DNA of 64,000 nt from Gammaproteobacteria bacterium (GTDB lineage: Bacteria > Pseudomonadota > Gammaproteobacteria > 21-64-14): positions 88,975 through 152,974 of the forward strand of contig JALUXX010000056.1 of assembly GCA_027013145.1 (NCBI GenBank), written 5' to 3'. Below are positions 3,858-56,570 of this stretch, in pieces. Position numbers and translations under genes: made by a program. How positions within the stretch are numbered: position 1 is the stretch's first letter; each line of letters opens with the position of its first letter. A model generated the notes under the pieces. That model saw nothing but the letters and a program-made list of their open reading frames with translations, did not search any database and was not told the DNA's origin.

Positions 3858-3872
3858 GGGCCGCGGGCGTAT

Positions 3873-29384: not shown

Positions 29385-29879
29385 AGCTCGCTGCCTTCGA
29401 CGCAGTCGCAAAGGCGCTGGATGCCGCACAGGTACGCTACCTCGTGGCCGGCGGTCTCGCCGTCAACGCGCACGGCTACGTCCGTTTGACCATGGACATC
29501 GATCTGGTGATCGCGCTGGATGCCGCCAATATCCGCCAAGCGTTCCAAGCCCTGGCAGGGATCGGTTATCGCCCCACCGTGCCGATCGACGCGGACGCCT
29601 TCGCCAGACCGGAACAACGCCAGCGCTGGCGGGAAGGAAAGGGCATGCAGGTGCTCAATTTCCAAAGCGACGCCTTCCCTGGCACCTCGGTGGACGTATT
29701 CGTCTACGAACCGTTCGATCTCGCAGAAGAATACGACATCGCCCTGTGTGGCGAACTGTTGCCGGGCATTTACGTGCGCTTTGTGTCCATCCCTACCCTG
29801 ATTCGCATGAAGCAAGCGGCTGCCCGCCCGCGCGACCTGGACGACATCCAGCACCTCAAGTGGTTGCAGGAGAATCCCG

Positions 29880-29887
<8 letters not shown>
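29381..29887 (+). CDS. Minimal nucleotidyltransferase-fold protein inserted between cas3 and csx17 (function unknown)
   Basis: 168 aa. LVAGGLAVNAHGYVRLTMDIDLVIA resembles the hG[GS]...DhDh NTase motif, and the later IRMKQAAARPRDLDDI resembles NTase C-terminal motifs. Its start overlaps the cas3 stop and its stop overlaps the csx17 start. Confidence 0.45.
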
Positions 29888-33411
<3,524 letters not shown>

Positions 33412-33414
33412 ATC

Positions 33415-34905
33415 ATGCTCGCCTTGTCCTTCACCTTTCCCGCGGGACGCTACCATGCCACACCCTGGGACCGGCATGTCAACGAAGGCGCCGTGGCATG
33501 GCCGCCGGAACCATGGCGGATCCTTCGCGGGCTGATTGCCACTTGGCATTGCAAGGTCAAATACAGCGGAAGGTATAGCGAAGCCGCACTGCTAGGCCTG
33601 ATCGAAGCGTTGACGCAGGAGCTGCCTGAATACGGGCTACCCACGGCGAGTCACAGCCATACTCGTCATTACATGCCGCAGTTCGCGACTGATAAGACGT
33701 CGCTGGTCTTGGACGCGTTCACAGGTGTCAAACGTGACGAGGCATTGACCGTGGTTTGGCCGAATGCAGAGCTTTCCAAGGACCAAGTTGATCTGCTGGA
33801 CGAGCTGTTGTTCGTCATGGGCTACCTTGGTCGCGCTGAATCCTGGGTGGAGGCAAAGCGCCTCACCGATGCGCCGGAAGTCAACTGTAAGCCCGACGCA
33901 ACGCCGCTGGATACCGGAACCGGCGAGCTGAAAGGTGAAACTGTAACCCTCTACGCCCCCTTGTCGCCGAACGAATACCAGTCACTGCGCCAGAGGTTTC
34001 TTGCCGACAAAAAGTCTGCAAAGAAGCTGGAAACGACGCTTCCTGAAGGATTGCTTCACGCGCTCAGCGTGGATACAGCGGAACTGCGCAAGCAGGGCTG
34101 GAGCCAGCCGCCCGCCGCACGCAGGGTCAGCTACGTGCGCCCTGTCGATGCACTTCGGCCGCGCTACGCCACGCCTCGCATACAGGTCCCCGATGCCACC
34201 ACCGGGAGTTTTATTGTCGTCGGCAAACCTTTGCCCCGAGTGGAGGAGGCGTTACGCATCGGCGAGCTGATGCGCATGGCGGTCATGAGTCAGGCGAAGC
34301 GCATATGCGGCGAAGACAAGGTGCCGGCCATTCTCTCAGGTCATGAAATGCCTGAAGGCAATCGTCATCGACACGCCTTTTACCTGCCCTGGGACAGCAA
34401 CCACGACGGGCGCATCGACCGCGTGGTGGTTCACGTGCCGGATGGCATGGAGGCTGACCAGCAGCGGATTGTCGAAAGCGTCAGAAGGCTATGGAGTCGA
34501 GACGGTGGCGAGTGGCGTCTGGTTTTGGAGAGTATCGGCGGTACTGGAATCGCGAACACTCTGACACAACCCAGCAGGGTTTGGGAGTCCGTCACGCCGT
34601 ACCTGCATCCCTGGCACGTCAAGAAGCATTTTGGGGTTGTGGCGCAGATCAAACGCGAATGCCGCGAGCGCGGCTTGCCCGAGCCGGCGATTCTGGAATC
34701 GTTCGATAAAGTGGAGGTGGGCAAGAACCGGGAACGACGCCCGATTCATTTCCGGCGCTTCCGCAACCGACGCGGCTTCACGCAACCCGACCGATTGGGC
34801 AGCTTCTGGCGCCTTAGTTTTCCGGAGCCTGTGGAAGGACCGCTAGCCCTTGGGTTCGCTTGCCACTTTGGCCTTGGGCTTTTCGTTCCTGTCGGCGATA
34901 CCTGA
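33415..34905 (+). CDS. csb2: Csb2 (Cas5-Cas6 fusion, type I-G)
   Basis: 496 aa. N-terminus MLALSFTFPAGRYHATPWDRHVNEGAVAWPPEPWRILRGLIATWH is typical of Csb2/GSU0054. Glycine-rich C-terminal loops and an AGGAGG RBS. In I-G loci the Cas6 function resides here. Confidence 0.7.
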   Translation: MLALSFTFPAGRYHATPWDRHVNEGAVAWPPEPWRILRGLIATWHCKVKYSGRYSEAALLGLIEALTQELPEYGLPTASHSHTRHYMPQFATDKTSLVLDAFTGVKRDEALTVVWPNAELSKDQVDLLDELLFVMGYLGRAESWVEAKRLTDAPEVNCKPDATPLDTGTGELKGETVTLYAPLSPNEYQSLRQRFLADKKSAKKLETTLPEGLLHALSVDTAELRKQGWSQPPAARRVSYVRPVDALRPRYATPRIQVPDATTGSFIVVGKPLPRVEEALRIGELMRMAVMSQAKRICGEDKVPAILSGHEMPEGNRHRHAFYLPWDSNHDGRIDRVVVHVPDGMEADQQRIVESVRRLWSRDGGEWRLVLESIGGTGIANTLTQPSRVWESVTPYLHPWHVKKHFGVVAQIKRECRERGLPEPAILESFDKVEVGKNRERRPIHFRRFRNRRGFTQPDRLGSFWRLSFPEPVEGPLALGFACHFGLGLFVPVGDT

Positions 34906-35125
34906 GCAACTTTTGATCTGGAGGTTTGGAATAGCCAGCTCATGCACCTGCTCGGTTAGGGGATGTTTGAAGCGCATGTTCTTAGCCACCTATTGCGTTT
35001 CGCCGCTGTTTTGTGGCGGAGGCAGCACACGGTTACCAAGCCATCCACGAGATGGCAAAGGACTTTGGTATCGGGAGAGCTGTGAGTTTGTAGCGGCAGT
35101 TTTTCCATAGGCGCGGCAGCGACGA

Positions 35126-35527
35126 CTAGAGGCGAATGACCCGAACGAGTTTTCCGAGGGCGGCGAAGTCGGACGGGTTGCGGGTATAGAGCGGTAAGCC
35201 GTTGGCCGCAGCGGTCGCGGCGATGAGCAGGTCGGCAAGGCGGGCGCGGGGCGCTTGGCCCGCCGCGCGCACGGCAGCGAAGGCGCGGCCGTACATGCGC
35301 GCGGCATCGGCATCGAAGGGCAGGGGATCCCAGGTCGCCGCGGCCCATTGCAGGCGATCCTGGCGGCGGGCGCGCTCATCCGCATCGCGTGTGGCGTGCG
35401 GCCCGGCTGCGAGTTCGGCGAGCGTCACGGCGGAGATGGCGGATTCGTCCGGAAGCAGGGATGCGTCGATTACGTCGTGGTCGATGACCACCGACGTATC
35501 CAGCAGGCCGCGGCTCGGCTCAGCCAT
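35126..35527 (-). CDS. vapC: VapC toxin (PIN-domain ribonuclease)
   Basis: MAEPSRGLLDTSVVIDHD... with acidic PIN residues (D at the N-terminus, ...AELAAG..., ...DLLIAATA...NGLPLYTRNPSDF). Its start overlaps the antitoxin stop (ATGGCTGA). Confidence 0.8.
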   Translation of the reverse strand: MAEPSRGLLDTSVVIDHDVIDASLLPDESAISAVTLAELAAGPHATRDADERARRQDRLQWAAATWDPLPFDADAARMYGRAFAAVRAAGQAPRARLADLLIAATAAANGLPLYTRNPSDFAALGKLVRVIRL

Positions 35528-35768
35528 CGACCGATGGATCGATCACTGCGTCCAGATCGGCGCGAAAGCGTTCGGCGTCGATCCGGGGTGCCCGAGCGGC
35601 GGCCTCGGCGATGGTCGCCCGGGGCACATACCGGCGCGGCTGGATCGGCCGCAGTTCGGCGATGGGGACGCCGTTGCGGGTGACGATGATCGTCCGCCCC
35701 GCCTGCACCTCGCGCAACACCTTTGCGGAGGCGTTACGCAACTCCCGTTGATTGATGACCTTTTCCAT
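35520..35768 (-). CDS. Phd/YefM-family type II antitoxin
   Basis: MEKVINQRELRNASAKVLREVQAGRTIIVTRNGVPIAELRPI is the canonical Phd/YefM N-terminus. Start trimmed to the ATG at 35768. Confidence 0.7.
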   Translation of the reverse strand: MEKVINQRELRNASAKVLREVQAGRTIIVTRNGVPIAELRPIQPRRYVPRATIAEAAARAPRIDAERFRADLDAVIDPSVDG

Positions 35769-36383
35769 GCGCCGAATGTAGCATATGTAGCACAATGTAG
35801 CAAACTATACCGGCCGTGAGCGGGTGGGGCGAGGGGCATCAATACAACATGATGGTTTTATTTGGTATTCCGTTTGGTGCCTTGCTTTGGCGTCCCCCTG
35901 CATCCGTTGCCGACTGGTCCGGAAATGGCGGTGGTATATCGCTGCCGACTTCGCGAATCGCCGTTCAGGCTTCGGGTTACCGGCGGGCGCCCGTTCGTAC
36001 TGGGCGGCGACCCGAAACAGGTCATGATCACCGGCAGCCCGATCGTTCGCAATGCCGAGGCGTTGTGGCGTTCCATTCCCACCTGTAGGAGAACTCATGG
36101 AAGACGGCGAATCCCAGGCAGAAAATCGGGCAGGCCAACCGCGCATTTGCTCGCCCTCTACACGCATTCGCGACGGTATCGCGTCGGAGGGGCGAGATCG
36201 CTGGTGCGTCCTCATGGCCACGAGGCTGGAATTGCGGTTGTGTCGGGGGCGCGCGCCGTGTCTTGTATGCCGAGCCCGTCTGCGTGTGGCCGTCGGATCC
36301 CCGCAATCGGATCTTAAGGCCTGCCCAGGCGTGTCGATTACGGGGAAGGGATATGGAAGCCATCTCGCCAAGAGGGAGCGCCG

Positions 36384-38093
36384 ATGGACGAACCGCGCCA
36401 GGGGGAACTCCCCATGCCGTTCCCGGACCTTTCCGGGGACATGCCGCTGTTGCCGGCCCGAATGGTCAACGAGTACGAATACTGCCCGCGGCTCGCTTAC
36501 CTCGAATGGGTACAGGGGGAGTGGGCAGACTCGGGTGATACGGTTGAGGGCCGTCATGCCCACCGCCGCGTGGACCGCCCAGGTGGACGGCTCCCCGAAT
36601 CCAGCGGCGATCCGGCCGAGCGCTTGCACGCCCGCTCCATCACACTTTCCTCAAACCGCCTCGGCTTGATTGCCAGGATGGATCTGGTCGAATCGGAAGG
36701 TCACACCGTCACGCCTGTGGATTACAAGCGCGGCAAGCGCCCGCACGTGGCCAAAGGCGCCTACGACCCGGAGCGGGTTCAGCTCTGCATCCAGGGTTTG
36801 ATCCTCGAGGAACACGGTTACGCGTGCCCCGAAGGCGTACTCTATTTCTCCGGATCCCGCGAGCGTGTCCGTGTCGTCTTCGACGAGGAGTTACGCATTC
36901 AGACCATGGCGGCGGTCGACGGCCTCCGACTTATAGCGGCTGGCGGGCAAGTTCCGCCACCACTTCAGGACAGCCCAAAGTGCCCACGCTGCTCGCTGGT
37001 GTCCATCTGTCTTCCGGATGAGGTCAACTTCCTGCACAGCGGAAAACTGGAACCACGTCCGATGGCGGTCGGGCGGGACGAGAGCCTTCCGCTCTATGTC
37101 CAGGCCAATCGCGCGAAAGTCGCGAGGAAAGGGGAAACCCTGGAGATCACGGTGGACGACGAAAAGGCCGCATCGGCCAGGCTGCCGGAGGTGTCCCAGC
37201 TCGTGGTGATGGGTAACGTCTATGTCACGACGCCGACGCTGCATGAGCTCATGCGCCGCGGGATTCCGATTACCTGGTATTCCTACGGTGGCTGGTTCCT
37301 TGGCCACAGTATCGGTACCGGGCACAAGAACGTGGAGCTGCGGACCGCACAGTACCGTGCTAGCTTCGACAGCCGGGCCTGCCTGCATCTGGCTCGCGAT
37401 CTGGTGCGCGCCAAGATTCTGAACTGTCGAACGCTACTCAGGCGAAACTGGCGCGGAGAAAAATCGGTTGATTCGGTACTCGCGCTATTGAAACGAGATG
37501 CGGAAGCCGCTTTGCGGGCGAGTAATCTCGAGACGCTGTTGGGAGTGGAAGGCGCTGCCGCTTCGCGGTATTTTGGATCGTTCTCCCAGATGATCAAGCC
37601 GGAAGGCGATTCGAGCTCATTCTCCTTCGACTTTTCGCGGCGCAACCGTAGACCACCGACCGATCCTGTAAACGCGTTACTTTCATTCGCGTACGCTATG
37701 CTGACGCGCGTCTTTTCAGTGGTCCTGACTGCCGTAGGTTTCGATGCCTACCGCGGCTTCTATCACCAACCTCGCTATGGTCGTCCGGCTCTGAGCCTTG
37801 ACATGATGGAGCCGTTTCGCCCGCTACTGGCCGATTCCAGCGTACTCACCGCAATCAATAACGGTGAGGTCCGCCCAAGCGACTTTGTTTCGGCCGCAGG
37901 CAGCGTCGCTCTGAGCGCGGATGGACGTAAGCGGTTTATTGCGACCTTCGAGCGGCGTTTAAGCCACGAGGTGACTCATCCGCTGTTCGGCTACCGGGCT
38001 AGCTATCGGAGGGTGTTGGAGATCCAGGCTCGGCTGTTGGGGCGCCATCTGCTGGGTGAGTTGACTGAGTACCCTAATTTCCTGACGCGATGA
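36384..38093 (+). CDS. cas4-cas1: Cas4-Cas1 fusion protein (adaptation module of type I-G)
   Basis: N-terminal Cas4 RecB-nuclease with Cys motifs (EYEYCPRLAYLEW...; CPRCSLVSIC). C-terminal Cas1 (...LVVMGNVYVTTPTLHELMRRGIPITWYSYGGWFLG..., catalytic E/H/E region). An alternative start is the Met at 36414. Confidence 0.85.
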   Translation: MDEPRQGELPMPFPDLSGDMPLLPARMVNEYEYCPRLAYLEWVQGEWADSGDTVEGRHAHRRVDRPGGRLPESSGDPAERLHARSITLSSNRLGLIARMDLVESEGHTVTPVDYKRGKRPHVAKGAYDPERVQLCIQGLILEEHGYACPEGVLYFSGSRERVRVVFDEELRIQTMAAVDGLRLIAAGGQVPPPLQDSPKCPRCSLVSICLPDEVNFLHSGKLEPRPMAVGRDESLPLYVQANRAKVARKGETLEITVDDEKAASARLPEVSQLVVMGNVYVTTPTLHELMRRGIPITWYSYGGWFLGHSIGTGHKNVELRTAQYRASFDSRACLHLARDLVRAKILNCRTLLRRNWRGEKSVDSVLALLKRDAEAALRASNLETLLGVEGAAASRYFGSFSQMIKPEGDSSSFSFDFSRRNRRPPTDPVNALLSFAYAMLTRVFSVVLTAVGFDAYRGFYHQPRYGRPALSLDMMEPFRPLLADSSVLTAINNGEVRPSDFVSAAGSVALSADGRKRFIATFERRLSHEVTHPLFGYRASYRRVLEIQARLLGRHLLGELTEYPNFLTR

Positions 38094-38590: not shown

Positions 38591-41500
38591 GTATTCCGCA
38601 GCATCACGCTGCGGCCTCATTGAAGCTCGACGATCGGCGCGCCCTGCCAGTAGACGTATGCGGTATTCCGCAGCATCACGCTGCGGCCTCATTGAAGCAA
38701 GCAAAACATCGCCGGGGAACAACTCCTCGTCGCCGTATTCCGCAGCATCACGCTGCGGCCTCATTGAAGCGACGTCGAGCAGGTCGGCGCTTCCGATGCG
38801 TCCCTGATCGTATTCCGCAGCATCACGCTGCGGCCTCATTGAAGCGTGCTATGGGGGCGATTGTCGAGCCATATACCACCGTAGTATTCCGCAGCATCAC
38901 GCTGCGGCCTCATTGAAGCCCGTAACCGTCAAGCCGGTCGATACTACACCGAGTGTATTCCGCAGCATCACGCTGCGGCCTCATTGAAGCCGGCACTACC
39001 TGAACCGCCCTTCATGTATTCATACAGGTATTCCGCAGCATCACGCTGCGGCCTCATTGAAGCCGTACAGCGTGGTGTTGATGGGCTGCCGCCGATTACT
39101 GTATTCCGCAGCATCACGCTGCGGCCTCATTGAAGCGAGACAACCAGATGTTGTCAGCGAGCCAAAACACTAGGTATTCCGCAGCATCACGCTGCGGCCT
39201 CATTGAAGCTAGGTGCGCGTCGAGGTGCCGTCCAACGTCGCGGGGGTATTCCGCAGCATCACGCTGCGGCCTCATTGAAGCACGCCGTACTAGCGGTTGT
39301 AAGTTGAACGTGAACACGTATTCCGCAGCATCACGCTGCGGCCTCATTGAAGCACTACGGCTGCAGGCACGCCGTGCTCTCTGTACATCGTATTCCGCAG
39401 CATCACGCTGCGGCCTCATTGAAGCTTCAACGCCGCCACCGCTGCAGTATCTGCCGCCGGGTATTCCGCAGCATCACGCTGCGGCCTCATTGAAGCGACC
39501 AAACAAAGGGGGGAGTTACTTTGGCACCTTTTGTATTCCGCAGCATCACGCTGCGGCCTCATTGAAGCTGAGGTGCCGCTCTCGGACGTGATCAAGAGCT
39601 ACCAGGTATTCCGCAGCATCACGCTGCGGCCTCATTGAAGCCCTGATGAATTGATCGGAATGTTTCCCCATTATGCAGGTATTCCGCAGCATCACGCTGC
39701 GGCCTCATTGAAGCGGTGCCCTACGCAGACGGCTGGGCGGCCGGCGGATCGACGTATTCCGCAGCATCACGCTGCGGCCTCATTGAAGCTCCAGCACGTA
39801 CTGGCGCGCCCGTGTCTGCCCCTACCGGTATTCCGCAGCATCACGCTGCGGCCTCATTGAAGCGCGGCGAGAACTCCGAGATCTGGGTCACGTTCAATCC
39901 GTATTCCGCAGCATCACGCTGCGGCCTCATTGAAGCGTCGTCGCGCACCCGGCCAAAATACCCAGGGAGGGAAGTATTCCGCAGCATCACGCTGCGGCCT
40001 CATTGAAGCACGGCATCGACCGCCTGCTTCGCCTGCTTGGCGGTGGTATTCCGCAGCATCACGCTGCGGCCTCATTGAAGCAAGTGGTGCCCGTTCTGCG
40101 GCTGGGCCATCAACGTGCTGTATTCCGCAGCATCACGCTGCGGCCTCATTGAAGCGTCTTTTCGCAGCAAAGTCTTCCCTGTCAGAGACGCGGTATTCCG
40201 CAGCATCACGCTGCGGCCTCATTGAAGCTACCTCTCGTTCGTGGATTGACGTTATTAAATGCACCGTATTCCGCAGCATCACGCTGCGGCCTCATTGAAG
40301 CGATCGAGTCAAAAGACGAGGGGTTGGTTCCGTTTCGCTGTATTCCGCAGCATCACGCTGCGGCCTCATTGAAGCACGGTGCGGGAACCAATAACCGCTA
40401 CACCAGCAGACGTATTCCGCAGCATCACGCTGCGGCCTCATTGAAGCCCCGCCAGTAATGCGGTTCCTGCTTCCCGCTTCCCTGGTATTCCGCAGCATCA
40501 CGCTGCGGCCTCATTGAAGCTAAAGGCGGTTTGCCTTTTCTAATTATGGGTCAAATGGTATTCCGCAGCATCACGCTGCGGCCTCATTGAAGCGTCGGAT
40601 ATGCGTACCGCTTGCGTGCGCTCTCCAGGGTATTCCGCAGCATCACGCTGCGGCCTCATTGAAGCATATCAACACCAAATTGCTTCATTGGCATTGATAT
40701 ACGTATTCCGCAGCATCACGCTGCGGCCTCATTGAAGCTTCGCTTCTTTTCTTGATATGATTTTTTTCATGATTGTATTCCGCAGCATCACGCTGCGGCC
40801 TCATTGAAGCCCTGGCGAAATGGAGCGCAATCAACGAGTTGGTGGACGTATTCCGCAGCATCACGCTGCGGCCTCATTGAAGCGCTGAGATCGTGGCGCA
40901 GGAGGTGGCACGGTTCAATGTATTCCGCAGCATCACGCTGCGGCCTCATTGAAGCACGCTTTCGCGCTCACGTGGGGGATGGCGTTTGGTCGTATTCCGC
41001 AGCATCACGCTGCGGCCTCATTGAAGCTCGGCCAGGGTTGCCATGCCGTTCTTTGAATCCCTCGTGTATTCCGCAGCATCACGCTGCGGCCTCATTGAAG
41101 CACGACACTCCAGCACCTGACCGATCAAGACAGGTTGGTATTCCGCAGCATCACGCTGCGGCCTCATTGAAGCTTATAGTTGATGGGTGAACGTCGCGGA
41201 CGGCTTTCATGGTATTCCGCAGCATCACGCTGCGGCCTCATTGAAGCCGACAAAATGGCTATTCTGAGAGGCAAAGAAGCTCTGTAGTATTCCGCAGCAT
41301 CACGCTGCGGCCTCATTGAAGCCCGACAATCGAAACCGAAACGCGCGAAATTTTTAACGTATTCCGCAGCATCACGCTGCGGCCTCATTGAAGCGGCTTT
41401 ATCTTCTACCGCTTCCGCTTTTGCTTCCGCTGTATTCCGCAGCATCACGCTGCGGCCTCATTGAAGCTAGGGAAGCTGTGATGTATAAAATCTTTCCTCG

Positions 41501-42049
41501 GTCGTATTCCGCAGCATCACGCTGCGGCCTCATTGAAGCAACTTGATGCCCTTCGCATCCTTGACGATTGCCATCGTATTCCGCAGCATCACGCTGCGGC
41601 CTCATTGAAGCGTGCCCTCCTTTCCTGGCGGCGGCGAACCACCGACGATGTATTCCGCAGCATCACGCTGCGGCCTCATTGAAGCCGGACGGGTCGGGCG
41701 GGTGCGCGAATCGGTTCAACATGTATTCCGCAGCATCACGCTGCGGCCTCATTGAAGCTTTTCCACGGTCAGTCCTCCTCGTAGTCGTCGACGTAGGTAT
41801 TCCGCAGCATCACGCTGCGGCCTCATTGAAGCGCAAGCTGAACGGTCACGGAATGCTGGCCTACGGCGGGTATTCCGCAGCATCACGCTGCGGCCTCATT
41901 GAAGCTGCTCGTCTCCTTACTGCTCTATGTCCGCCGCGCCAGGTATTCCGCAGCATCACGCTGCGGCCTCATTGAAGCCAGACCACGCGGTCCCCGTTCA
42001 CCGATACGGAGTTGTATTCCGCAGCATCACGCTGCGGCCTCATTGAAGC
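38591..42049 (+). CRISPR. CRISPR array, proximal part. ~48-49 copies of a 36-nt repeat GTATTCCGCAGCATCACGCTGCGGCCTCATTGAAGC.
   Basis: Exact 36-nt repeats with a period of ~71-73 bp and 35-37-nt unique spacers. The repeat has a CCGCAGC/GCTGCGG palindromic core and an ATTGAAGC 3' handle, resembling type I-U repeats that end in ATTGAAAC. Confidence 0.95.
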
Positions 42050-42076: not shown

Positions 42077-43399
42077 GGTTCATCGCAGAAGTCCGGGGAG
42101 GTTGAGCTGGTGAAGCTGGCTCCGTACCGTTGCGCTGTGGCGACGACGGGGGGTGGGGCCATGTTTGACAAGGGTACTTTGAGCGAGCTGGGTGGCTGGA
42201 CGGGCTACCGGGTTGCGGACCTGGAGTACCGGCCCGGTGAAGGCTGGATGGGGCGAGGCAAGTTGCTGATCCGGTTGGAACCTCGCGGCCAGACGATGCG
42301 CTGCTCGCGCTGCGGGCAGGAGAGCCGGTCGGTGCATGACACCACGGTCAGGCGCATCCGCGACCTGCCCATTCTGGACTGGGATGTGGTGTTGATCGTC
42401 CCGCGCCGGCGGCTGTGGTGCGGGCACTGTGGTGGTCCCCGTCTGGAAGCGCTGGAGTGGCTGTCGGCGCACCGCCGGGTGACGCGGCGGCTGGAGGAAG
42501 CCATCGGGCGGCTGAGCCGGATGATGCCGTTGAAGCAGGTGGCGGCGTTCTATGGCGTGGGCTGGCACACGGTCAAGGCCATCGACAAGGCCCTGCTGGA
42601 GCAGGGGGTGCTGGAGCCCGACTGGCGCGGCATCGAGTACCTGGGCATGGATGAGTTTGCCCTGCACAAGGGGCATCGCTATGCCACGGTCATCGTGGAG
42701 CCCCTGCGTCGCCAGGTGCTGTGGGTGGGCGAAGGGCGCAGCCGCGAGGCCATCCGGCCCTTCTTCGAGGGTCTTGACGAGGCCACCCGCCGGCGTATCA
42801 AGGCGGTGGTGATGGACATGAACACCGCTTTCGATCTGGAGGTTCAGGCTCATTGTCCCCATGCGGAGGTCGTCTACGACCTGTTCCACGTGGTGGCCAA
42901 GTATGGCCGGGAGGTGATCGACCGGGTGCGGGTGGATGAGGCCAACCGGCTCAAGAAGGATCGCCCGGCCCGCAAGGTCATCAAGTCTGCCCGCTGGCTG
43001 CTGTTGCGCAACCGGGAGAACCTGGAGACGCCCGAGCAGGCGGTCCGCCTGGATGAGTTGCTGGCGGCGAATCAGGCCCTGATGACGGTCCATGTGCTCA
43101 AGGAGGACCTCAAGCGCCTGTGGCGCTATCGGCATGCCGGGTACGCCAAACGACTCTGGGAAGGCTGGTATCAGCGGGCCATGGAAAGCGCCATCGCGCC
43201 CCTGATGCAGTTTGCCCGGCGCCTGAGACCGTATCTCCAGGGCATCCTGGCCCATTGCCGCCACCCGCTGCACACCAGCGTGCTCGAGGGTATCAACAAC
43301 CGCATCAAGGTCATCAAACGCATGGCCTACGGCTTCCGGGATACCGACTACTTCTTCCTGAAAATCCGCGCCGCCTTCCCCGGAAATTTACGATGAACC
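42077..43399 (+). mobile_element. ISL3-family insertion sequence (1323 bp) inserted in a CRISPR spacer, with an 8-bp target site duplication TTTTTTTA
   Basis: Terminal IRs ggttcatcgcagaagtccgggga and tccccggaaatttacgatgaacc (imperfect, ~23 bp). Flanking direct repeat ttttttta at 42069-42076 and 43400-43407. Single transposase ORF. Confidence 0.8.
42110..43396 (+). CDS. ISL3-family transposase
   Basis: 428 aa. N-terminal zinc-finger region (RCSRCGQESRSVHDTTVRRIRDLPILDWDVVLIVPRRRLWCGHCGG) and a DDE core, typical of ISL3 transposases. GTG start. Confidence 0.85.
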   Translation: MKLAPYRCAVATTGGGAMFDKGTLSELGGWTGYRVADLEYRPGEGWMGRGKLLIRLEPRGQTMRCSRCGQESRSVHDTTVRRIRDLPILDWDVVLIVPRRRLWCGHCGGPRLEALEWLSAHRRVTRRLEEAIGRLSRMMPLKQVAAFYGVGWHTVKAIDKALLEQGVLEPDWRGIEYLGMDEFALHKGHRYATVIVEPLRRQVLWVGEGRSREAIRPFFEGLDEATRRRIKAVVMDMNTAFDLEVQAHCPHAEVVYDLFHVVAKYGREVIDRVRVDEANRLKKDRPARKVIKSARWLLLRNRENLETPEQAVRLDELLAANQALMTVHVLKEDLKRLWRYRHAGYAKRLWEGWYQRAMESAIAPLMQFARRLRPYLQGILAHCRHPLHTSVLEGINNRIKVIKRMAYGFRDTDYFFLKIRAAFPGNLR

Positions 43400-43416: not shown

Positions 43417-43889
43417 GTATTCCGCAGCATCACGCTGCGGCCTCATTGAAGCCAACGGAGATCGCGGCGCGCAGCCCGTCGGTCGCGTCGGTATTCCGCA
43501 GCATCACGCTGCGGCCTCATTGAAGCTCATCGGGGTGGAACCTTTGAAAATCGGCCCCAGGAACGTATTCCGCAGCATCACGCTGCGGCCTCATTGAAGC
43601 AATTCCAGGAGCCCCGCCGCGCCCGTGATCCGCTCGGTATTCCGCAGCATCACGCTGCGGCCTCATTGAAGCGGCATCGCGTCGACCTCGGTCTGAACCT
43701 GACCGATGTATTCCGCAGCATCACGCTGCGGCCTCATTGAAGCCCGTTCAGTTTCAGGCGGAGGTTGGTCACCTGCGCAGGTATTCCGCAGCATCACGCT
43801 GCGGCCTCATTGAAGCATGTAGGGGGCGGCGGAGTTGAGATTCGTGCCCCATTGTATTCCGCAGCATCACGTTGCGGTCTCATTGAAGC
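43417..43889 (+). CRISPR. CRISPR array, distal part. 7 repeats with a degenerate terminal repeat.
   Basis: Same 36-nt repeat resumes 10 bp after the IS. The last repeat (43854-43889) has 2 mismatches (gtattccgcagcatcacgTtgcggTctcattgaagc), typical of a trailer-end repeat. Confidence 0.9.
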
Positions 43890-45287
43890 ACGCCTCACTT
43901 GACATGATGATGCGCAGGGCCACCGCGGCCTATGCTTTACGCTGTGGGCTTCTGCATTTTCCGGGCCAACGCCCAAACTGGCCGCAGGCGGAATCGGGCC
44001 CCCACCCTTCAGGGTGGGGGCGCCATAGGCTGGCCGGGCCCGAATCAACTGGCCGATTTTCACCATTTGACCTCCTTTCATCGCTACGTTGAACGCTCAA
44101 TCGAGTCGCCGGGAACCACCCCGGCTGCGCCCGGACAACCCGCGGCACCACCCGCAGTATCCGAACGCGCTCACCACCACTTGGACTACCACGCCCAGTC
44201 ACTTTTCGCACACGCCTGGTGCTTTCGACACCGGGGTACCACCCCCCCGGTCGGCTTGCGCCTCTCCCACGGCTTCGACTGAATCGCCGATGAGATTTAT
44301 CGTCTACTCACACCGCTCCCAGCCATAGAACCCGCCCCTTACCGGGGTCAGGATTCCTTAGGCCTTCCCGCGTTAGCTACGAATGTCGCGCGATTAGCCA
44401 GCGCCTCACACAGACGTCGGGGTGTCTTCCACCTCACCGGTCGGTTTTCAGGGGCCCGGGACTCCAAGGCAGCTCCCTTACCGACGTCTGTGCTTGCAGC
44501 TTCAGTCATCCACACGCTTTCGGGTGGAAACTGGCATCATCGAACTCACTCGACAGCGACCTCTGCGGCCGCCGTTACTGGCTTAAGCTATTCTGCGATC
44601 GTCCCAGGTTGCCCCGAGGCGTACCAGCCGTTCCAAGTTTCCTCTTACGGCCTCAAGAAGGTTTCCCTTCCCGCGTGCAGCCCACCAGTCGAGTCCCGGT
44701 TGTACCCTCTCGAGCACCCCCGGGCCGGGATTCTCACCCGTTCATCCGCAGCAGGGTTCCGCCGGTTTCCGTGACAAAGCACGTTCCCCCTTTGGCCCGT
44801 TTCCGCGTCGCCCAGTCCCGCCCCGTCGGGGCGGATTAGGTCGAACATGGCATTGCAGCCATGAGCGCCCGTTGCAGCCGCACCAGCCCAATTACGGGCA
44901 TGCAGCTACGGCGCGTGCACGACTTGGATTGGTGGTCCAAGTCTGGCCGGATGGTTCCGGCCGAGCCCCTTTCGGGGCAGTGACAGTGGTGTCCGGGGGC
45001 TGGTGAGACCCCCACGGAACTACGGTGGTGGACTCGACCCCCGGGCGAGTGTCCGTCGGTGCGACGTACACACTCACCGGTTTCCTATCCCGGTATAGGG
45101 AAAAAAATCGCTCTGGTGTCTCCCTCATAGGAGTCCCTAGTCGTTTGTCCTGAATCGACCCTTGGGAGATTCAAGGCAAACTGTCCGATCAATCGGTTAG
45201 CCTCGCTCCTTCCTGATAGTCGGCCGATGCCGGATTTCCGGACGGTTCGCTATACCCGGGTATCTACCCGAGAGGAGTGAACCGATC
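43890..45287. other. ORF-free, hairpin-dense 1.4-kb segment. Candidate structured ncRNA or degraded element. Identity unknown.
   Basis: No ORF longer than 120 aa with plausible composition on either strand. Many perfect GC hairpins with 3-4-nt loops (ccccaccc-ttca-gggtgggg, gcccc-tttc-ggggc, gccccg-tc-ggggc). On the minus strand, a strong SD+ATG (aaaggaggtcaaATG) sits at 44066-44083 but the reading frame runs into the CRISPR trailer. Confidence 0.3.
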
Positions 45288-45983
45288 ATGTACGATCCAC
45301 CCGTCCAGATTCACAAAACTGTACTGATGCAGCGCATTCTCGATGCCGTGAGCCGCGGCTATCTTCTGTACACTGCCGGGAAGGTTCCGGCGGACAAGGC
45401 CCAGCGTCTCGCCGGCAAGTTTGCGACCCGTTACGCGGTACATCGGAACGAGAACCAAAGGGCGTACGCCCGTCGCAAGGGGCGGGCCAACGCCAGGCTC
45501 TTTCTCTACGCTCCGCCCAACGACACCGATCTTCGCTGGTGGTTGTGCGTCACGTCCGGGGCAGGGGCCGTGCATGAACTGGAAAAGCTCGCCGATGCCC
45601 GGAATCGGCACACGAGGGTTTGGATCGAGGAGGACTATGAGTTGATTCAGCTGAGCCGGAAAAAGGGGCAGGGGACCGGAACGGTCTGGACATGGAGGAT
45701 GACCCACGGCTGCGACGAGCGGTGGCGCCTGCGGCTGCGCCATGCCTGCCGCACGCCGGGCACCTCGGAGATCCGCTTGGCGATCGGCTCGCTGTCCCGG
45801 ACCCCGGGCTTCTCAGGCATCCGCCGGCAGGTCGGGGACCTGATGGTCTTTGCGCGGGCCGAGTGGCGCCGGCGCCATGGCAATTTGGATCGGTTTCCGG
45901 GGCTGCTCAGGCTGCGGTATGTCGAGCGCCTTTCGAACACCGCCGTGCCGTTGACCGCGTGGAAGCGGCGAAGCAGTCGGTAA
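45288..45983 (+). CDS. Hypothetical protein (231 aa), no recognised family
   Basis: GAGGAG RBS lies 10 nt upstream of the ATG. Basic protein (many R/K) with motifs WWLCVTSGAG and WTWRMTHGCDERW. A competing antisense ORF (45264-45743) makes the coding call uncertain. Confidence 0.35.
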   Translation: MYDPPVQIHKTVLMQRILDAVSRGYLLYTAGKVPADKAQRLAGKFATRYAVHRNENQRAYARRKGRANARLFLYAPPNDTDLRWWLCVTSGAGAVHELEKLADARNRHTRVWIEEDYELIQLSRKKGQGTGTVWTWRMTHGCDERWRLRLRHACRTPGTSEIRLAIGSLSRTPGFSGIRRQVGDLMVFARAEWRRRHGNLDRFPGLLRLRYVERLSNTAVPLTAWKRRSSR

Positions 45984-55342: not shown

Positions 55343-56347
55343 TCAGGGCTTGGCAAGTTGGTCGAGCTTGTCTATGAGATGCTGGGTGCTTGGATGGGCA
55401 TAGCGCCGAAAGACCCGCATGTCCTTATGCCCACTGACCGCCATCGCCTCGATCACGTTCCAGCCGGCTTCCACCAGGCTGGATACGCGTTCGTGGCGCA
55501 GATCATGCAGTCGAAAATCCTCGAGTCTCGCCCGCATCCGCAGCCGCTTCCAGGCCAATTTCACCGCATTGACGGTGAGCCCCTCGAAGACGTATGTCCC
55601 GCTGCCCGTGAGTCTGCGCAGCCCGCGCAGCGCGGCGGTCGCGCGTCGTGAGAGCGGCACTTGCCGGCCCTGGCCGTTCTTCGTCTGTGCGTCTCGCAGG
55701 CCGATGACACGCTGCTTCAAGTTGACCTGTCGCCACTCGATCCCGAGCAGCTCGCCGCGGCGCATGCCGCTCTCGCGCGCCAGGGTCACGAAGGTCCGGA
55801 ACAGCGGGTTCCGGCACCGGCGAAGCGCGGCGTCCAGGCGTCGGCGCTCGTCGGGATCCAGGCGACGGGTGCGGTTGGGCGAATTCTTGGGGCGATCGAC
55901 ATCCGCCATCGGGTCGTGGGGGAGGAGATGGCGTTTGCGTGCCCGACGCAGGGCGCGGGAGAGGATGGAAAGCTCGCGGTTGACCGTGGAGCCCGAGACC
56001 GTGGTCAGCCGCGACTCGATGTAGTCTTCGATGACGCCGGCGTTGATCTCGGCCAATGACAGCGTGGCGAGGGGGTGGCGCATCATCGCCAGTACGCGTT
56101 TGTTTTCGATGGCGGCCCCGCGGTGCAATGGGACGACCTTGCGCCGGTAGTCCTCCAGGACATCGCTGAGTGTCGTCTGTTGGGCGGCCAGGGTTTCGGG
56201 AAGGGCGCCGAAGTCGATATCCCGTTCTTTGGCGCGGACCCAGGTCTCGGCCTCGCGGCGGGTGTCGAAGGTGGCGGTGAGTGTCGCATACCCGCGCCGG
56301 CGGATTCGGGCTTGATAGGCGCGACCGCGCCGCGTGATGGATGCCAT
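55343..56347 (-). CDS. int: Tyrosine-type phage integrase / site-specific recombinase
   Basis: MASITRRGRAYQARIRRRGY... N-terminal arm-binding/SAM-like domain. C-terminal catalytic region with RHDLRHERVSS...VSGHKDMRVFRRYAH (R..HxxR..Y). GAGGAG RBS. Start trimmed to the ATG at 56347. Confidence 0.85.
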   Translation of the reverse strand: MASITRRGRAYQARIRRRGYATLTATFDTRREAETWVRAKERDIDFGALPETLAAQQTTLSDVLEDYRRKVVPLHRGAAIENKRVLAMMRHPLATLSLAEINAGVIEDYIESRLTTVSGSTVNRELSILSRALRRARKRHLLPHDPMADVDRPKNSPNRTRRLDPDERRRLDAALRRCRNPLFRTFVTLARESGMRRGELLGIEWRQVNLKQRVIGLRDAQTKNGQGRQVPLSRRATAALRGLRRLTGSGTYVFEGLTVNAVKLAWKRLRMRARLEDFRLHDLRHERVSSLVEAGWNVIEAMAVSGHKDMRVFRRYAHPSTQHLIDKLDQLAKP

Positions 56348-56495
56348 ATCGCTTCTCCTCGTCTGTGGGGACAAGGGGTGTAGCGAATGGCGAGGCGGAT
56401 TCGACCGGCGGTCGGGCGAATTTGACCGAATTGGAGCAAATTGGAGCAAATTGCCCCGACGTGCCCGGCCCGGATGCCGTAAGTCATTGAAAACA

Positions 56496-56570
56496 TGGTG
56501 GGCGATGCTGGGATCGAACCAGCGACCCCTGCCGTGTGAAGGCAGTGCTCTCCCGCTGAGCTAATCGCCC
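56496..56570 (-). tRNA. tRNA-Val (anticodon CAC), the island integration target
   Basis: Reverse complement GGGCGATTAGCTCAGCGGGAGAGCACTGCCTTCACACGGCAGGGGTCGCTGGTTCGATCCCAGCATCGCCCACCA. Anticodon loop TTCACAC. Acceptor stem GGGCGAT/ATCGCCC. Its 3' 46 nt are duplicated at 23825-23870. Confidence 0.85.

What the first reader, a model, noticed from the sequence alone, without database searches (positions are those of the whole stretch)
43890..45287. 1.4-kb ORF-free, hairpin-dense segment between the CRISPR trailer and the STAND regulator. Candidate large structured RNA or decayed element.
Neither strand has a compositionally plausible ORF. The DNA is dense in perfect short-loop GC hairpins (ccccaccc-ttca-gggtgggg at ~44005, gccccg-tc-ggggcg at ~44815, gcccc-tttc-ggggc at ~44965). 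It contains purine-rich single-stranded-looking tracts (ggaaactggcatcatcgaactcactcgac; ccggtatagggaaaaaaatcgc). On the minus strand, a near-consensus SD (AAAGGAGGT) and ATG at 44066-44083 lie upstream of a frame that runs straight into the degenerate terminal CRISPR repeat. I could not match it to rRNA, tmRNA, RNase P or group II intron signatures by eye. I did not recognise it as any large ncRNA class that I know occurs in mobile elements (GOLLD/ROOL/HEARO-like, IS-associated guide RNAs), or as an antisense regulator of the array, but I cannot exclude these.
Basis: seen in the sequence. Interest (0 to 1): 0.6.

Follow-up and report, generated by a model that had tools for sequence, protein, structure and literature searches.

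The report
Circularly permuted group II ribozyme gene
The ORF-free stretch encodes a roughly 1.1-1.2 kb self-processing RNA of the already described "circularly permuted group II" ribozyme class, next to its usual partner gene acpG on an integrated mobile element; the class is known, but what it does in the cell is not.

Summary
Window ~43992-45240 has no conserved ORF. It is conserved at 68-75% nucleotide identity in over 40 loci, more than the flanking protein. It folds on the MINUS strand into about 300 base pairs, 172 of them with compensatory changes. It is not a new RNA class. It is a circularly permuted (CP) group II ribozyme (Roth et al. 2021, PMC8637638), and the divergent 231-aa ORF (45288-45983) is its described partner AcpG. 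Evidence:
- D5 has an invariant AGC triad, 5 bp and a UN bulge.
- D6 has an invariant bulged A, followed by AAU, a 21-nt linker hairpin and the invariant GGGCGAC.
- The RNA is homologous to the Gluconacetobacter plasmid RNA listed in that paper's Data S1 and to T. thermophilus pTT8.
- AcpG matches TTHC007.
Rfam 15 does not detect the RNA. Points I did not find in the main text of the papers read:
- The module sits beside the type IV coupling protein gene in T4SS plasmids with no recognised relaxase, and 35 of 35 AcpG plasmids are typed non-mobilizable.
- It occurs in minimal integrase islands.
- An upstream 8-mer that covaries with the exon-binding site copies the predicted circle junction.
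Verdict: a new member of a known kind, and biological role still open.

The parts
43992..45240 (-). Whole CP group II ribozyme transcription unit (approximate). The conserved block is 43992-45190; the 5' end is not mapped.
   Evidence: Conservation profile. nhmmer profile hits over the full length in about 25 loci. RNAalifold gives 300 pairs, 172 with compensatory change. The strand is assigned from G-U content (10.4% against 3.9%), paired fraction and fold z-scores.
45249..45270 (-). Conserved, partly palindromic motif (GTAGATA..GTATAGC) in the acpG-RNA intergenic region. It contains a -10-like TATAGC (45254-45249). I read it as a candidate divergent promoter or operator.
   Evidence: Conserved in both the window clade and the E. 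coli/Azotobacter/Halomonas clade. The sigma-70 consensus scan found no promoter, so the function is inferred only.
45145..45179 (-). 5' leader hairpin (UUGAAUC...GAUUCA).
   Evidence: Stem covaries in the A5 alignment: A5 columns 128-162, up to 6 of 14 sequences with double changes per pair.
45130..45137 (-). Upstream 8-mer GGGACUCC. It is complementary 8/8 to the EBS1-like segment and identical to the predicted ligated-exon (circle) junction.
   Evidence: 8/8 complementarity in all 24 loci where the D1 motif was located, with three independent compensatory variants in the window, Gluconacetobacter and Novacetimonas.
45051..45064 (-). 5' strand of the long-range closing helix. It pairs with 44081-44094.
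   Evidence: A5 columns 258-271 pair with 1300-1315, with covariation.
44921..44962 (-). Two hairpins with xACCA loops (44962-44945, loop AACCA; 44943-44921, loop CCACCAA). They correspond to P1/P2 of the published model.
   Evidence: Same position and loop type as the two CUAACCA hairpins that open the published alignment row NC_010124.1/23090-23958. Loop classes switch in concert with the UGGyy loops across clades.
44874..44909 (-). Domain 5. The AGC triad is at 44907-44905. It is followed by 5 bp, a UG bulge at 44885-44884, an upper helix and a UAAU loop.
   Evidence: A, G and C of the triad and the U-G wobble are invariant in 33 diverse sequences; stem pairs have up to 20 of 33 double changes. 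The architecture is the same in T. thermophilus pTT8. It matches the description in PMC8637638 section 9.
44838..44871 (-). Domain 6, with the bulged branch-point adenosine at 44841.
   Evidence: RNAalifold on A6 and A7 places an invariant unpaired A on the 3' strand. The lower and upper stems covary.
44814..44837 (-). Splice-site region: the 3' splice-site motif AAU (44837-44835), then a 21-nt linker or 'exon' (44834-44814) with the hairpin GCCCCGACGGGGC. Its last 6 nt, GGGACU (44819-44814), form IBS1.
   Evidence: AAU(C) is conserved after D6. Linker length varies from 21 to about 70 nt and it holds a hairpin. IBS1 is complementary to the D1 segment with covariation. The exact splice junctions are inferred by analogy with PMC8637638, not measured.
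44103..44813 (-). Block of domains 1-4. It begins with the invariant 5' splice-site-like GGGCGAC (44813-44807). It contains the EBS1-like GGAGUCCC (44465-44458) and four hairpins with GUGGUR loops (44251-44230, 44196-44183, 44160-44139, 44125-44108).
   Evidence: GGGCGAC is identical in all 10 sequences of A7, Thermus included. Helices covary. The individual borders of D1, D2, D3 and D4 were not assigned.
44069..44080 (-). Conserved purine-rich SD-like tail (UGAAAGGAGGUC), 3' of the closing helix.
   Evidence: A GGAGG-like motif is present in 12 of 14 sequences, but no downstream ORF is conserved. Function unknown.
43992..44056 (-). 3' GGCC hairpin (44056-44025) and GC-rich terminator-like hairpin (44024-43992).
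   Evidence: The terminator stem covaries and is followed by U-runs in many homologues. The E. coli copy ends in a canonical hairpin plus UUUUU. The window copy has a weak U-tract and the consensus scan did not call it a terminator.
45288..45983 (+). acpG, a 231-aa protein of unknown function that partners CP group II RNAs.
   Evidence: Homologues are adjacent to the RNA in all fetched loci except the RNA-only plasmids L001/L004 and L007. The profile matches T. thermophilus TTHC007/AcpG: hhalign probability 90%, E 1.6e-6; hmmsearch E 2.2e-11. The AF2 model has pLDDT 94.8 and no Foldseek hit in PDB or BFVD. No Pfam, NCBIfam, PHROG or PADLOC match.

Best explanation
The segment is the gene for a circularly permuted (CP) group II ribozyme, transcribed from the minus strand from about 45240 to 43992. 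The divergent ORF at 45288-45983 is its described partner, AcpG. The RNA has a 5' leader, then the P1/P2 hairpins, then D5 (the catalytic AGC triad and bulge), then D6 (branch adenosine at 44841). After D6 come the two splice sites in inverted order, separated by a 21-nt linker, and then about 700 nt of scaffold domains D1-D4. A long-range helix closes the fold, and UGGyy/xxCCA loop-loop pairs staple it.

By analogy with members tested in vitro, I infer the following reaction. The D1 exon-binding site (44465-44458) pairs with the end of the linker. The 2'-OH of the branch A attacks the 5' splice site at 44814|44813. The freed 3'-OH then attacks the 3' splice site at 44835|44834. This back-splicing releases a small RNA circle and leaves a T-shaped RNA with a 2'-5' branch.

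Shown here: class membership, strand, structure and synteny. Inferred: catalytic activity, exact junctions and transcript ends.

The biological role is unknown for the whole class. From genomic context, my best guess is that the RNA and AcpG form a backbone module of plasmids and integrative elements linked to T4SS coupling-protein-dependent transfer. I do not think it is a replication function or a phage function.
For: (1) Structured RNA on the minus strand: 300 predicted pairs, 172 with compensatory change. The D5-D6 domain shows 94.9% of cells paired against 31-47% in slid controls, and 0 of 500 shuffles reach the observed value. G-U asymmetry and z-scores favour the minus strand.
(2) Defining features of the class are present. 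D5 has the invariant AGC triad, 5 bp, a UN bulge and a tetraloop. D6 has an invariant bulged A. These are followed by AAU, a short linker with a hairpin, and the invariant GGGCGAC. All of this matches the description in PMC8637638.
(3) Direct homology to listed members. The nhmmer profile of the window clade hits Gluconacetobacter diazotrophicus pGDIPal5I with E 2e-96, at the coordinates that Data S1 gives for Gdi-1-1 (NC_010124.1 23126-23958). It also hits T. thermophilus pTT8 at 5913-5774, inside Tth-2-2 (5976-5075).
(4) The partner protein matches AcpG/TTHC007 and lies divergently upstream, as described.
(5) IBS1/EBS1 complementarity covaries.
(6) Context. The arrangement T4CP - RNA - acpG, or acpG - T4CP, occurs in the Gluconacetobacter, Paraburkholderia, Ralstonia, Pandoraea and E. 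coli T4SS plasmids. All 35 PLSDB plasmids that carry AcpG are typed non-mobilizable. Minimal integrase islands carry the module. It is absent from the phage and IMG/VR collections. It lies outside the minimal replicon of pMtBL and is dispensable for pTT8 replication.
Against: Rfam 15 gives no hit to any group II model, even when only D5-D6 is searched. The assignment therefore rests on homology to published members and on manual feature matching.

The 5' splice-site motif is GGGCG, not the canonical GUGYG.

The window copy deviates in places. Its D2-like loop reads GGUAA rather than UGGUR, so the P2-D2 loop-loop pair is only about 3 bp. Its predicted circle is very small (21 nt), so activity of this particular copy is uncertain.

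I could not see the published figure, so the borders of D1-D4 and the P1/P2 naming are approximate.

No expression data exist for this locus.

The functional inference (transfer-linked) is guilt by association. Unrecognised relaxases may exist on those plasmids. RNA-only plasmids in E. coli mostly occur without an AcpG plasmid in the same genome.
Confidence: 0.88

Rival explanations
1. The window copy is an inactive relic of a CP group II ribozyme. It would retain the fold but no longer self-process.
For: The D2-like loop lacks the UGGUR motif found in relatives. The linker is only 21 nt. The terminator U-tract is weak.
Against: The AGC triad, the bulge, the branch A and GGGCGAC are all intact. 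The changes in IBS1, in the leader 8-mer and in EBS1 are mutually compensatory (GGGACU(CC)/GGAGUCCC), which argues for continued selection on substrate pairing. acpG is intact.
Confidence: 0.12
2. It is a new ornate RNA class unrelated to group II introns. On this view it would be a GOLLD/ROOL/OLE-like scaffold or multimer whose D5-like hairpin is a coincidence.
For: There is no Rfam hit of any kind. It has many kissing-loop-type complementary loops, as in ROOL and GOLLD (PMC12286853).
Against: It is homologous to RNAs that the literature lists, and has tested, as CP group II ribozymes. The D5/D6/splice-site features are invariant across Proteobacteria and Thermus.
Confidence: 0.02
3. It is a decayed protein-coding gene or other degenerate element.
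For: High G+C gives many spurious ORFs of 100-260 codons in different homologues.
Against: There is no 3-nt periodicity. No ORF is conserved in frame or position. Nucleotide identity (68-75%) exceeds that of the neighbouring protein (52-64% aa). Compensatory pairs are abundant.
Confidence: 0.01
4. The functional form is single-stranded DNA, not RNA. It would be an oriT or ssi-like structure on the transferred strand.
For: It sits where oriT is expected, between the T4CP gene and a small gene, on T4SS plasmids with no known relaxase. G-T wobble could mimic G-U. Small E. coli plasmids carry only this element, in the manner of oriT-only hitchers.
Against: GNRA-type tetraloops, a D5/D6 catalytic core, terminator hairpins with U-runs and demonstrated ribozyme activity of relatives (PMC8637638) all point to RNA. 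Expression of the RNA has been reported in a native host.
Confidence: 0.03
5. It is a long structured leader or regulator for the minus-strand SD-ATG small ORF, or an antisense or trans regulator of the adjacent CRISPR array.
For: A conserved GGAGG lies 3' of the core. A start codon lies 3-13 nt downstream in 10 of 14 loci. The CRISPR array is adjacent in the window.
Against: The start codon, frame and length of the ORF are not conserved, and 4 of 14 loci have none. No other locus has a CRISPR array next to the element.
Confidence: 0.02

Closest known systems
CP (circularly permuted) group II ribozymes with AcpG (Roth, Weinberg, Vanderschuren, Murdock & Breaker, iScience 2021, PMC8637638). Cryo-EM of the Comamonas testosteroni Cte 1 member is in bioRxiv 10.64898/2025.12.30.696962.
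   Same: The domain order is the same: P1/P2, then D5, D6, the inverted splice sites, then D1-D4. D5 has the AGC triad, 5 bp and a UN bulge. D6 has the bulged A. The linker is short and holds a hairpin. There are loop-loop pseudoknots and no internal ORF. The divergent acpG is present. The element resides on plasmids and chromosomes. It is directly homologous in sequence to listed members (Gdi-1-1, Tth-2-2).
   Different: This copy and its clade (Sedimenticola, Thioalkalivibrio, Thiohalobacter, Chromatiales MAGs) are not named in the supplementary text I could search. Neither are the E. coli, Azotobacter, Halomonas and pMtBL copies. The conserved unit here is longer (about 1.1-1.25 kb against about 900 nt). 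It adds a 5' leader hairpin, an upstream 8-mer that copies the circle junction, and an SD-like 3' tail.
Canonical bacterial group II introns (Rfam RF00029 Intron_gpII; group-II-D1D4 models)
   Same: The catalytic D5 architecture, the D6 branch adenosine, EBS1/IBS1 exon recognition, and a GUGYG-like intron 5' end (GGGCGAC against GUGCGAC).
   Different: The domains are circularly permuted. There is no intron-encoded reverse transcriptase or maturase. The element does not interrupt a host gene. The products are a circle and a branched RNA, not ligated exons and a lariat. Rfam models do not detect it.
Large ornate bacterial ncRNAs of unknown function (GOLLD, ROOL, OLE, raiA)
   Same: It is a large, highly structured, mobile-element-associated RNA with many tertiary loop-loop contacts, and its cellular role is unresolved.
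   Different: There is no sequence or structure-model match. This RNA has a recognisable catalytic core and a known in vitro reaction.
oriT-relaxase (Dtr) modules of conjugative and mobilizable plasmids. This is a comparison by position only, from general knowledge of plasmid biology.
   Same: It occupies the slot next to the T4CP gene on T4SS plasmids. It occurs on small plasmids and integrase islands that otherwise lack a mobilization module. RNA-only small plasmids parallel oriT-only plasmids.
   Different: No relaxase fold or HUH/Tyr motif is recognisable in AcpG. No nic site has been demonstrated. The analogy is purely positional.

Membership tests
CP group II ribozyme (PMC8637638) | D5 and D6 lie 5' of the D1-D4 scaffold (permuted domain order). 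| tested here: met
   D5 is at 44909-44874 and D6 at 44871-44838. About 700 nt of covarying helices follow, down to 44103. The individual D1-D4 borders were not assigned.
CP group II ribozyme (PMC8637638) | D5 has an AGC triad, five base pairs, a two-nucleotide UN bulge and a terminal tetraloop. | tested here: met
   A, G and C are invariant in 33 sequences. The 5 bp covary. The bulge reads U followed by C or G. The loop is UAAU in Proteobacteria and GAAA in Thermus.
CP group II ribozyme (PMC8637638) | D6 has a bulged branch-point adenosine and an internal loop. | tested here: met
   There is an invariant unpaired A (window 44841) on the 3' strand, 6 nt before the end of AAU. The stems covary.
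CP group II ribozyme (PMC8637638) | The 3' SS (AY) and the 5' SS (GUGYG-like) occur in reverse order, separated by a short linker (<100 nt) that contains a stem-loop. | tested here: met
   The order is AAU, then a 21-nt linker with a hairpin, then GGGCGAC. GGGCGAC is identical in all 10 sequences of A7, including T. thermophilus pTT8. The motif is GGGCG rather than GUGYG, and the exact junctions were not measured.
CP group II ribozyme (PMC8637638) | A P2-D2 loop-loop pseudoknot supported by covariation. | tested here: inconclusive
   Relatives show matched variants: AACCACC/GGUGGUU, UUACCA/UGGUAA, ACCCA/UGGGU. There are clade-wide switches xACCA/UGGUy to xGCCA/UGGCy. In the window copy itself the D2-like loop is GGUAA, which gives only about 3 bp.
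CP group II ribozyme (PMC8637638) | Sequence homology to published or experimentally tested members. | tested here: met
   nhmmer gives E 2e-96 to the Gluconacetobacter plasmid region that Data S1 lists as Gdi-1-1. It gives E 1e-4 to pTT8 within Tth-2-2. The alignment is A7.
CP group II ribozyme (PMC8637638) | No ORF or intron-encoded protein inside the RNA. | tested here: met
   No conserved ORF and no codon periodicity.
CP group II ribozyme (PMC8637638) | Mg2+-dependent back-splicing to a circle plus a branched RNA. | not testable with these tools
   This needs in vitro transcription and processing assays, or junction-spanning RNA-seq reads.
AcpG (TTHC007 family) | Homology to T. thermophilus TTHC007 and genetic linkage to a CP group II RNA. 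| tested here: met
   hhalign probability 90%, E 1.6e-6 over 194 columns. hmmsearch E 2.2e-11. The gene is adjacent to and divergent from the RNA.
Canonical group II intron (Rfam RF00029, group-II-D1D4) | A match to Rfam covariance models, D1-D6 domain order, and an intron-encoded protein in D4. | tested here: not met
   No hit at E <= 10, even on the 126-nt D5-D6 stretch. The order is permuted and there is no RT ORF.
GOLLD / ROOL / OLE / raiA / HEARO large ncRNAs | A match to the Rfam family model. | tested here: not met
   No hit at the gathering threshold or at E <= 10.
Pseudogene of a protein-coding gene | Codon periodicity of substitutions, and an intact ORF in some relative. | tested here: not met
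   Variation per codon phase is 0.199/0.173/0.182. ORFs differ in frame and position between loci.

The most novel reading that the evidence does not exclude
The CP group II ribozyme, with AcpG as its cofactor, is the site-specific nucleic-acid-processing module of a family of T4SS plasmids and integrative or mobilizable elements that have no recognised relaxase. After back-splicing, its freed exon-binding site would recognise the conserved, covarying 8-nt copy of the circle junction that lies upstream in the element's own intergenic region (window 45137-45130). It would then cleave or reverse-splice there, in DNA or RNA. That would supply the nick or handle that the adjacent coupling protein (T4CP) needs, so the ribozyme would be doing a relaxase-like job.
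Probability: 0.1. Interest if true: 0.92.

Novelty: new member of a known kind. Interest (0 to 1): 0.42.

Why it matters
[quoted passage not shown] PMC8637638 states that no role is known for either. This locus itself is an ordinary new member, but the comparative work around it gives concrete handles.
- The RNA is missed by Rfam 15 and by RefSeq annotation. Unannotated copies sit in tractable hosts: 15 E. coli T4SS plasmids of 27-35 kb, seven 3-kb E. coli plasmids that carry the RNA but no acpG, and pMtBL, the parent of the Pseudoalteromonas haloplanktis TAC125 expression vectors.
- The RNA-acpG pair behaves as a backbone module of plasmids and integrase islands. It sits next to the T4SS coupling-protein gene on plasmids with no recognised relaxase.
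- An upstream 8-mer covaries with the exon-binding site and equals the predicted circle junction, so it is a candidate in vivo substrate.
Together these turn "function unknown" into testable genetics: conjugation and mobilization assays in E. coli with RNA, acpG or target-site mutants.

Tried and rejected
- **Rfam:** gathering and permissive scans of the window, of homologues and of D5-D6 alone gave no family hit.
- **Pseudogene:** rejected by the ORF and periodicity analysis.
- **Phage association:** no blastn hit in the phage collection. Two conserved-motif scans of IMG/VR gave 53 loci, none with the RNA or AcpG. These were chance k-mer matches.
- **Replication primer or origin (ColE1-like):** rejected. 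The pMtBL OriR (1918-2759) replicates alone in a cured strain, and the RNA core lies at 3122-3591. Deleting the pTT8 ribozyme does not affect replication. Other plasmids carry RepL, TrfA or Rep_3.
- **Small ORF after the SD-like motif:** not conserved.
- **T-box-like binding of tRNA 3' ends by the UGGN loops:** I dropped this because the UGGyy loops covary with internal xxCCA loops.
- **Assigning each xxCCA loop to a UGGyy partner within the window clade:** too little variation. Only the 44962-44945 hairpin and the D2-like loop stand out.
- **The search for related loci with over-diverse protein alignments:** failed.
- **Before identification:** I treated the RNA as a possibly new ornate class. 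Literature keyword searches did not reveal it. Recognising the D5-like hairpin led me to PMC8637638.
Full report
**1. What is there**

Window 43890-45287 lies between the last, degenerate CRISPR repeat (43854-43889; RF01330 at 28.7 bits) and a 231-aa ORF on the plus strand (45288-45983). No Rfam family matches it at gathering thresholds or at E <= 10. The plus strand is C-rich here: GC skew falls to -0.24. The ORFs are short.

A distant blastn search against plasmids gave 17 hits at 66-79% identity. All fell in gene-free gaps of 1.2-3 kb on small plasmids of E. coli, Azotobacter, Halomonas, Gluconacetobacter and Novacetimonas. There were no phage hits. The ORF next to the match is homologous in most of these plasmids (30-38% identity) to the window's 231-aa ORF.

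**2. A conserved RNA, not a pseudogene**

Using the protein as a handle I fetched about 45 further loci from genomes, metagenomes and assemblies. The roughly 1.1 kb upstream of the protein is 68-75% identical at the nucleotide level, while the protein is only 52-64% identical. The conserved block is window ~43990-45190 and has almost no indels. Substitutions show no 3-nt periodicity, and no ORF is conserved in frame or position.

RNAalifold on 14 sequences gives 300 pairs, 172 of them with compensatory double changes. These include long-range helices that close the molecule.

The minus strand is the folded strand:
- 93.4% of cells are paired on the minus strand against 90.9% on the plus strand.
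- G-U pairs make up 10.4% against 3.9%.
- The single-sequence fold gives z = -7.6 against -3.5.

On a 33-sequence alignment spanning all clades, a 33-pair sub-structure is 94.9% paired against 31-47% for slid controls. Its covariation score is 0.383 against 0.06-0.08, and 0 of 500 shuffles reach it.

**3. Identification**

The most conserved hairpin reads 5'-A-G-C, then 5 bp, then an upper helix and loop, then a 2-nt U-N bulge, then the return strand. The AGC and a closing U-G wobble are invariant in 33 sequences. This is the architecture of group II intron domain 5.

That led me to Roth et al. 2021 (PMC8637638). They describe a ~900-nt "CP group II" RNA on bacterial chromosomes and plasmids with domain order D5-D6-D1-D2-D3-D4. 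It has inverted splice sites separated by a short linker and P1/P2 hairpins at the 5' end, with loop-loop pseudoknots. A divergent ~260-aa ORF of unknown function, AcpG (TTHC007 of T. thermophilus pTT8), is associated with it.

Tests run here:
- **D6.** D6 follows D5. It has an invariant bulged A (window 44841) on the 3' strand, followed by CCU-AAU.
- **Splice-site region.** A 21-nt linker with a hairpin follows (44834-44814). Then comes GGGCGAC, identical in all ten sequences of alignment A7, Thermus included.
- **Homology to listed RNAs.** The window-clade profile hits Gluconacetobacter diazotrophicus pGDIPal5I with E 2e-96. The hit lies where the paper's Data S1 places Gdi-1-1 (NC_010124.1 23126-23958). 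It also hits pTT8 at 5913-5774, inside Tth-2-2. Thermus aquaticus, T. oshimai and Polaromonas CJ2, which my AcpG tblastn also found, are in the paper's taxon list; so is the Ralstonia genus, though through other strains.
- **Partner protein.** The window protein family matches TTHC007: hhalign probability 90%, E 1.6e-6; hmmsearch E 2.2e-11.

The region is therefore a CP group II ribozyme gene with acpG. Canonical Rfam group II models do not detect it, even on the isolated D5-D6 segment.

**4. Anatomy in window coordinates (minus strand)**

| Feature | Coordinates |
|---|---|
| Conserved intergenic palindrome with -10-like TATAGC | 45270-45249 |
| Leader hairpin | 45179-45145 |
| Upstream 8-mer GGGACUCC | 45137-45130 |
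| Closing helix | 45064-45051 with 44094-44081 |
| Hairpin with CUCACCA loop | 45013-44995 |
| GAAA hairpin | 44978-44964 |
| P1/P2-type hairpins | 44962-44945 and 44943-44921 |
| D5 | 44909-44874 |
| D6 | 44871-44838 |
| AAU (3' splice-site motif) | 44837-44835 |
| Linker / exon | 44834-44814 |
| GGGCGAC | 44813-44807 |
| D1-D4 block | to 44103 |
| EBS1-like GGAGUCCC | 44465-44458 |
| Four GUGGUR loops | within 44251-44108 |
| SD-like tail | 44080-44069 |
| GGCC hairpin | 44056-44025 |
| Terminator-like hairpin | 44024-43992 |

**5. Loop-loop pairs**

Hairpin loops of the form xxCCA lie in the 5' part, and loops of the form UGGyy lie in the 3' part. They change in concert between clades:

| Clade or plasmid | xxCCA loops | UGGyy loops |
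|---|---|---|
| Window clade | (C/A/U/G)ACCA | UGGU(A/G/U) |
| E. coli, Azotobacter, Halomonas, L047, L035 | (U/C)GCCA | UGGC(A/G) |
| Gluconacetobacter | two CUAACCA, plus (C/U)GCCA | two UGGUU, plus UGGC(A/G) |
| Paraphotobacterium | CUAGCCA | UGGCU |
| pMtBL | CGCCAA | UUGGCG |

Within the window clade, only the 44962-44945 hairpin and the D2-like loop show partner-specific covariation: AACCACC/GGUGGUU, UUACCA/UGGUAA and ACCCA/UGGGU. This agrees with the published P2-D2 pseudoknot. In the window copy that loop is degenerate.

**6. How it most likely works**

By analogy with the five members assayed in vitro and the Cte 1 cryo-EM structures:
- EBS1 pairs with the last six linker nucleotides.
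- The branch A (44841) attacks the 5' splice site.
- The freed 3'-OH attacks the 3' splice site.
- A small circle is released. I predict 21 nt here, with junction GGGACU-CC.
- A T-shaped branched RNA remains.

These steps are inferred, not shown, for this copy.

**7. Context, and what I did not find in the main text of the papers I read**

*The module is a mobile-element backbone.*
- It is found on small RepL, TrfA and Rep_3 plasmids.
- pMtBL consists only of OriR, ParAB, orf1 (which is AcpG) and the RNA.
- It occurs in minimal islands. Examples are RNA-acpG-HD-hyp-HTH-integrase in Sedimenticola and RNA-87aa-acpG-AlpA-like-integrase in L047.
- It also sits at the edge of larger defence islands.
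- In the window, a tyrosine integrase (55343-56449) abuts a tRNA (56499-56570) about 10 kb away.

*It sits beside the T4SS coupling-protein gene.* The order is T4CP - RNA - acpG in Gluconacetobacter, Paraburkholderia, Ralstonia and Pandoraea. In E. coli it is acpG - T4CP - VirB11-like. All 35 PLSDB plasmids encoding AcpG are typed non-mobilizable, meaning no known relaxase, although several carry a T4SS. T4CP domains do appear in the paper's supplementary gene-context table, but its main text never mentions conjugation.

*E. coli carries unannotated copies.* Fifteen plasmids of 27-35 kb carry RNA plus acpG, and seven 3-kb plasmids carry the RNA only. None is annotated.

*An upstream 8-mer copies the predicted circle junction.*
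- It is perfectly complementary to the EBS1-like segment in all 24 loci examined.
- It has three independent compensatory variants.
- It equals IBS1 plus the first two nucleotides after the 3' splice site, which is the predicted ligated-exon junction.
- In Gluconacetobacter it lies about 770 nt upstream of the published RNA start.

It is a candidate substrate for the reverse or exon-reopening reactions of the processed ribozyme.

**8. Verdict**

The interpretation "large structured RNA" is right and "decayed element" is wrong. The RNA belongs to a published ribozyme class, so this is a new member of a known kind rather than a new kind. Interest is moderate. The class's cellular role is unresolved, and the T4CP and relaxase-less association together with the junction-mimic site offer a specific hypothesis that can be tested in E. 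coli. I put that hypothesis at about 10%.

Noticed in passing
window 38591-42049 and 43417-43889; 42110-43396: One CRISPR array (RF01330-type repeats) is split by an ISL3-family transposase insertion (DDE_Tnp_ISL3). The last repeat (43854-43889) is degenerate.
   Followed up: partly
window 26982-38093: A type I-U/I-G-like cas operon lies upstream of the array. It includes Cas3 (helicase plus HD), Cas_GSU0053, a Cas4-Cas1 fusion and several ORFs without Pfam hits.
   Followed up: partly
window 55343-56449 (-) and 56499-56570 (-): A tyrosine integrase lies directly next to a tRNA gene, about 10 kb from acpG. This suggests the ribozyme/acpG/STAND-regulator region belongs to an island integrated at the tRNA. 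The island ends were not mapped.
   Followed up: no
window 45130-45137 (-), 44814-44819 (-), 44458-44465 (-): There are three mutually matched short elements: the upstream 8-mer GGGACUCC, the linker end GGGACU (IBS1) and the D1 segment GGAGUCCC (EBS1-like). The upstream copy equals the predicted circle junction, and it covaries with EBS1 in the window, Gluconacetobacter and Novacetimonas.
   Followed up: yes
window 44069-44080 (-): A conserved Shine-Dalgarno-like GGAGG lies in the single-stranded 3' tail after the closing helix, with no conserved ORF behind it. Its purpose is unknown; ribosome or protein binding, or a pairing partner, are possibilities.
   Followed up: partly
window 45249-45270; L002, L003, L001, L005 equivalent positions: A conserved, partly palindromic motif (GTAGATA...TATAG/TATAAG) lies between acpG and the RNA in distant clades. 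It is a candidate shared operator or divergent promoter. The consensus scan found no sigma-70 promoter.
   Followed up: partly
L046 (E. coli pEc631_3, NZ_CP040266.1) and 14 similar plasmids; L001/L004 and 6 similar 3-kb plasmids: E. coli carries unannotated CP group II ribozymes. The 27-35 kb P-type T4SS plasmids have acpG and a T4CP homologue but no annotated relaxase. The 3-kb RepL plasmids carry the ribozyme but no acpG (96% identical core). Only one genome has both.
   Followed up: partly
L052 (pMtBL, NZ_AJ224742.1) about 2800-3950 (+) and 110-817: The cryptic plasmid behind the Pseudoalteromonas haloplanktis TAC125 expression vectors carries a CP group II ribozyme (core 3122-3591). Its orf1 is an AcpG homologue. 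Here the RNA and acpG are on the same strand. Neither is mentioned in the passages of the two pMtBL papers that I read.
   Followed up: partly
PLSDB tblastn: All 35 plasmids that encode AcpG are typed non-mobilizable by MOB-suite, including 30-70 kb plasmids with MPF_T type IV secretion genes.
   Followed up: partly
L027 about 2144-2764: One metagenomic homologue has an internal deletion of about 400 profile positions (622-1028), so it is probably a defective copy.
   Followed up: no
L043-L045, L049: KfrA_N-domain genes recur one or two genes from acpG in chromosomal islands. The paper's Data S1 lists KfrA_N next to the Polaromonas copy. This is consistent with a plasmid-derived backbone.
   Followed up: no
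It is not conserved next to the ribozyme in other loci.
   Followed up: no
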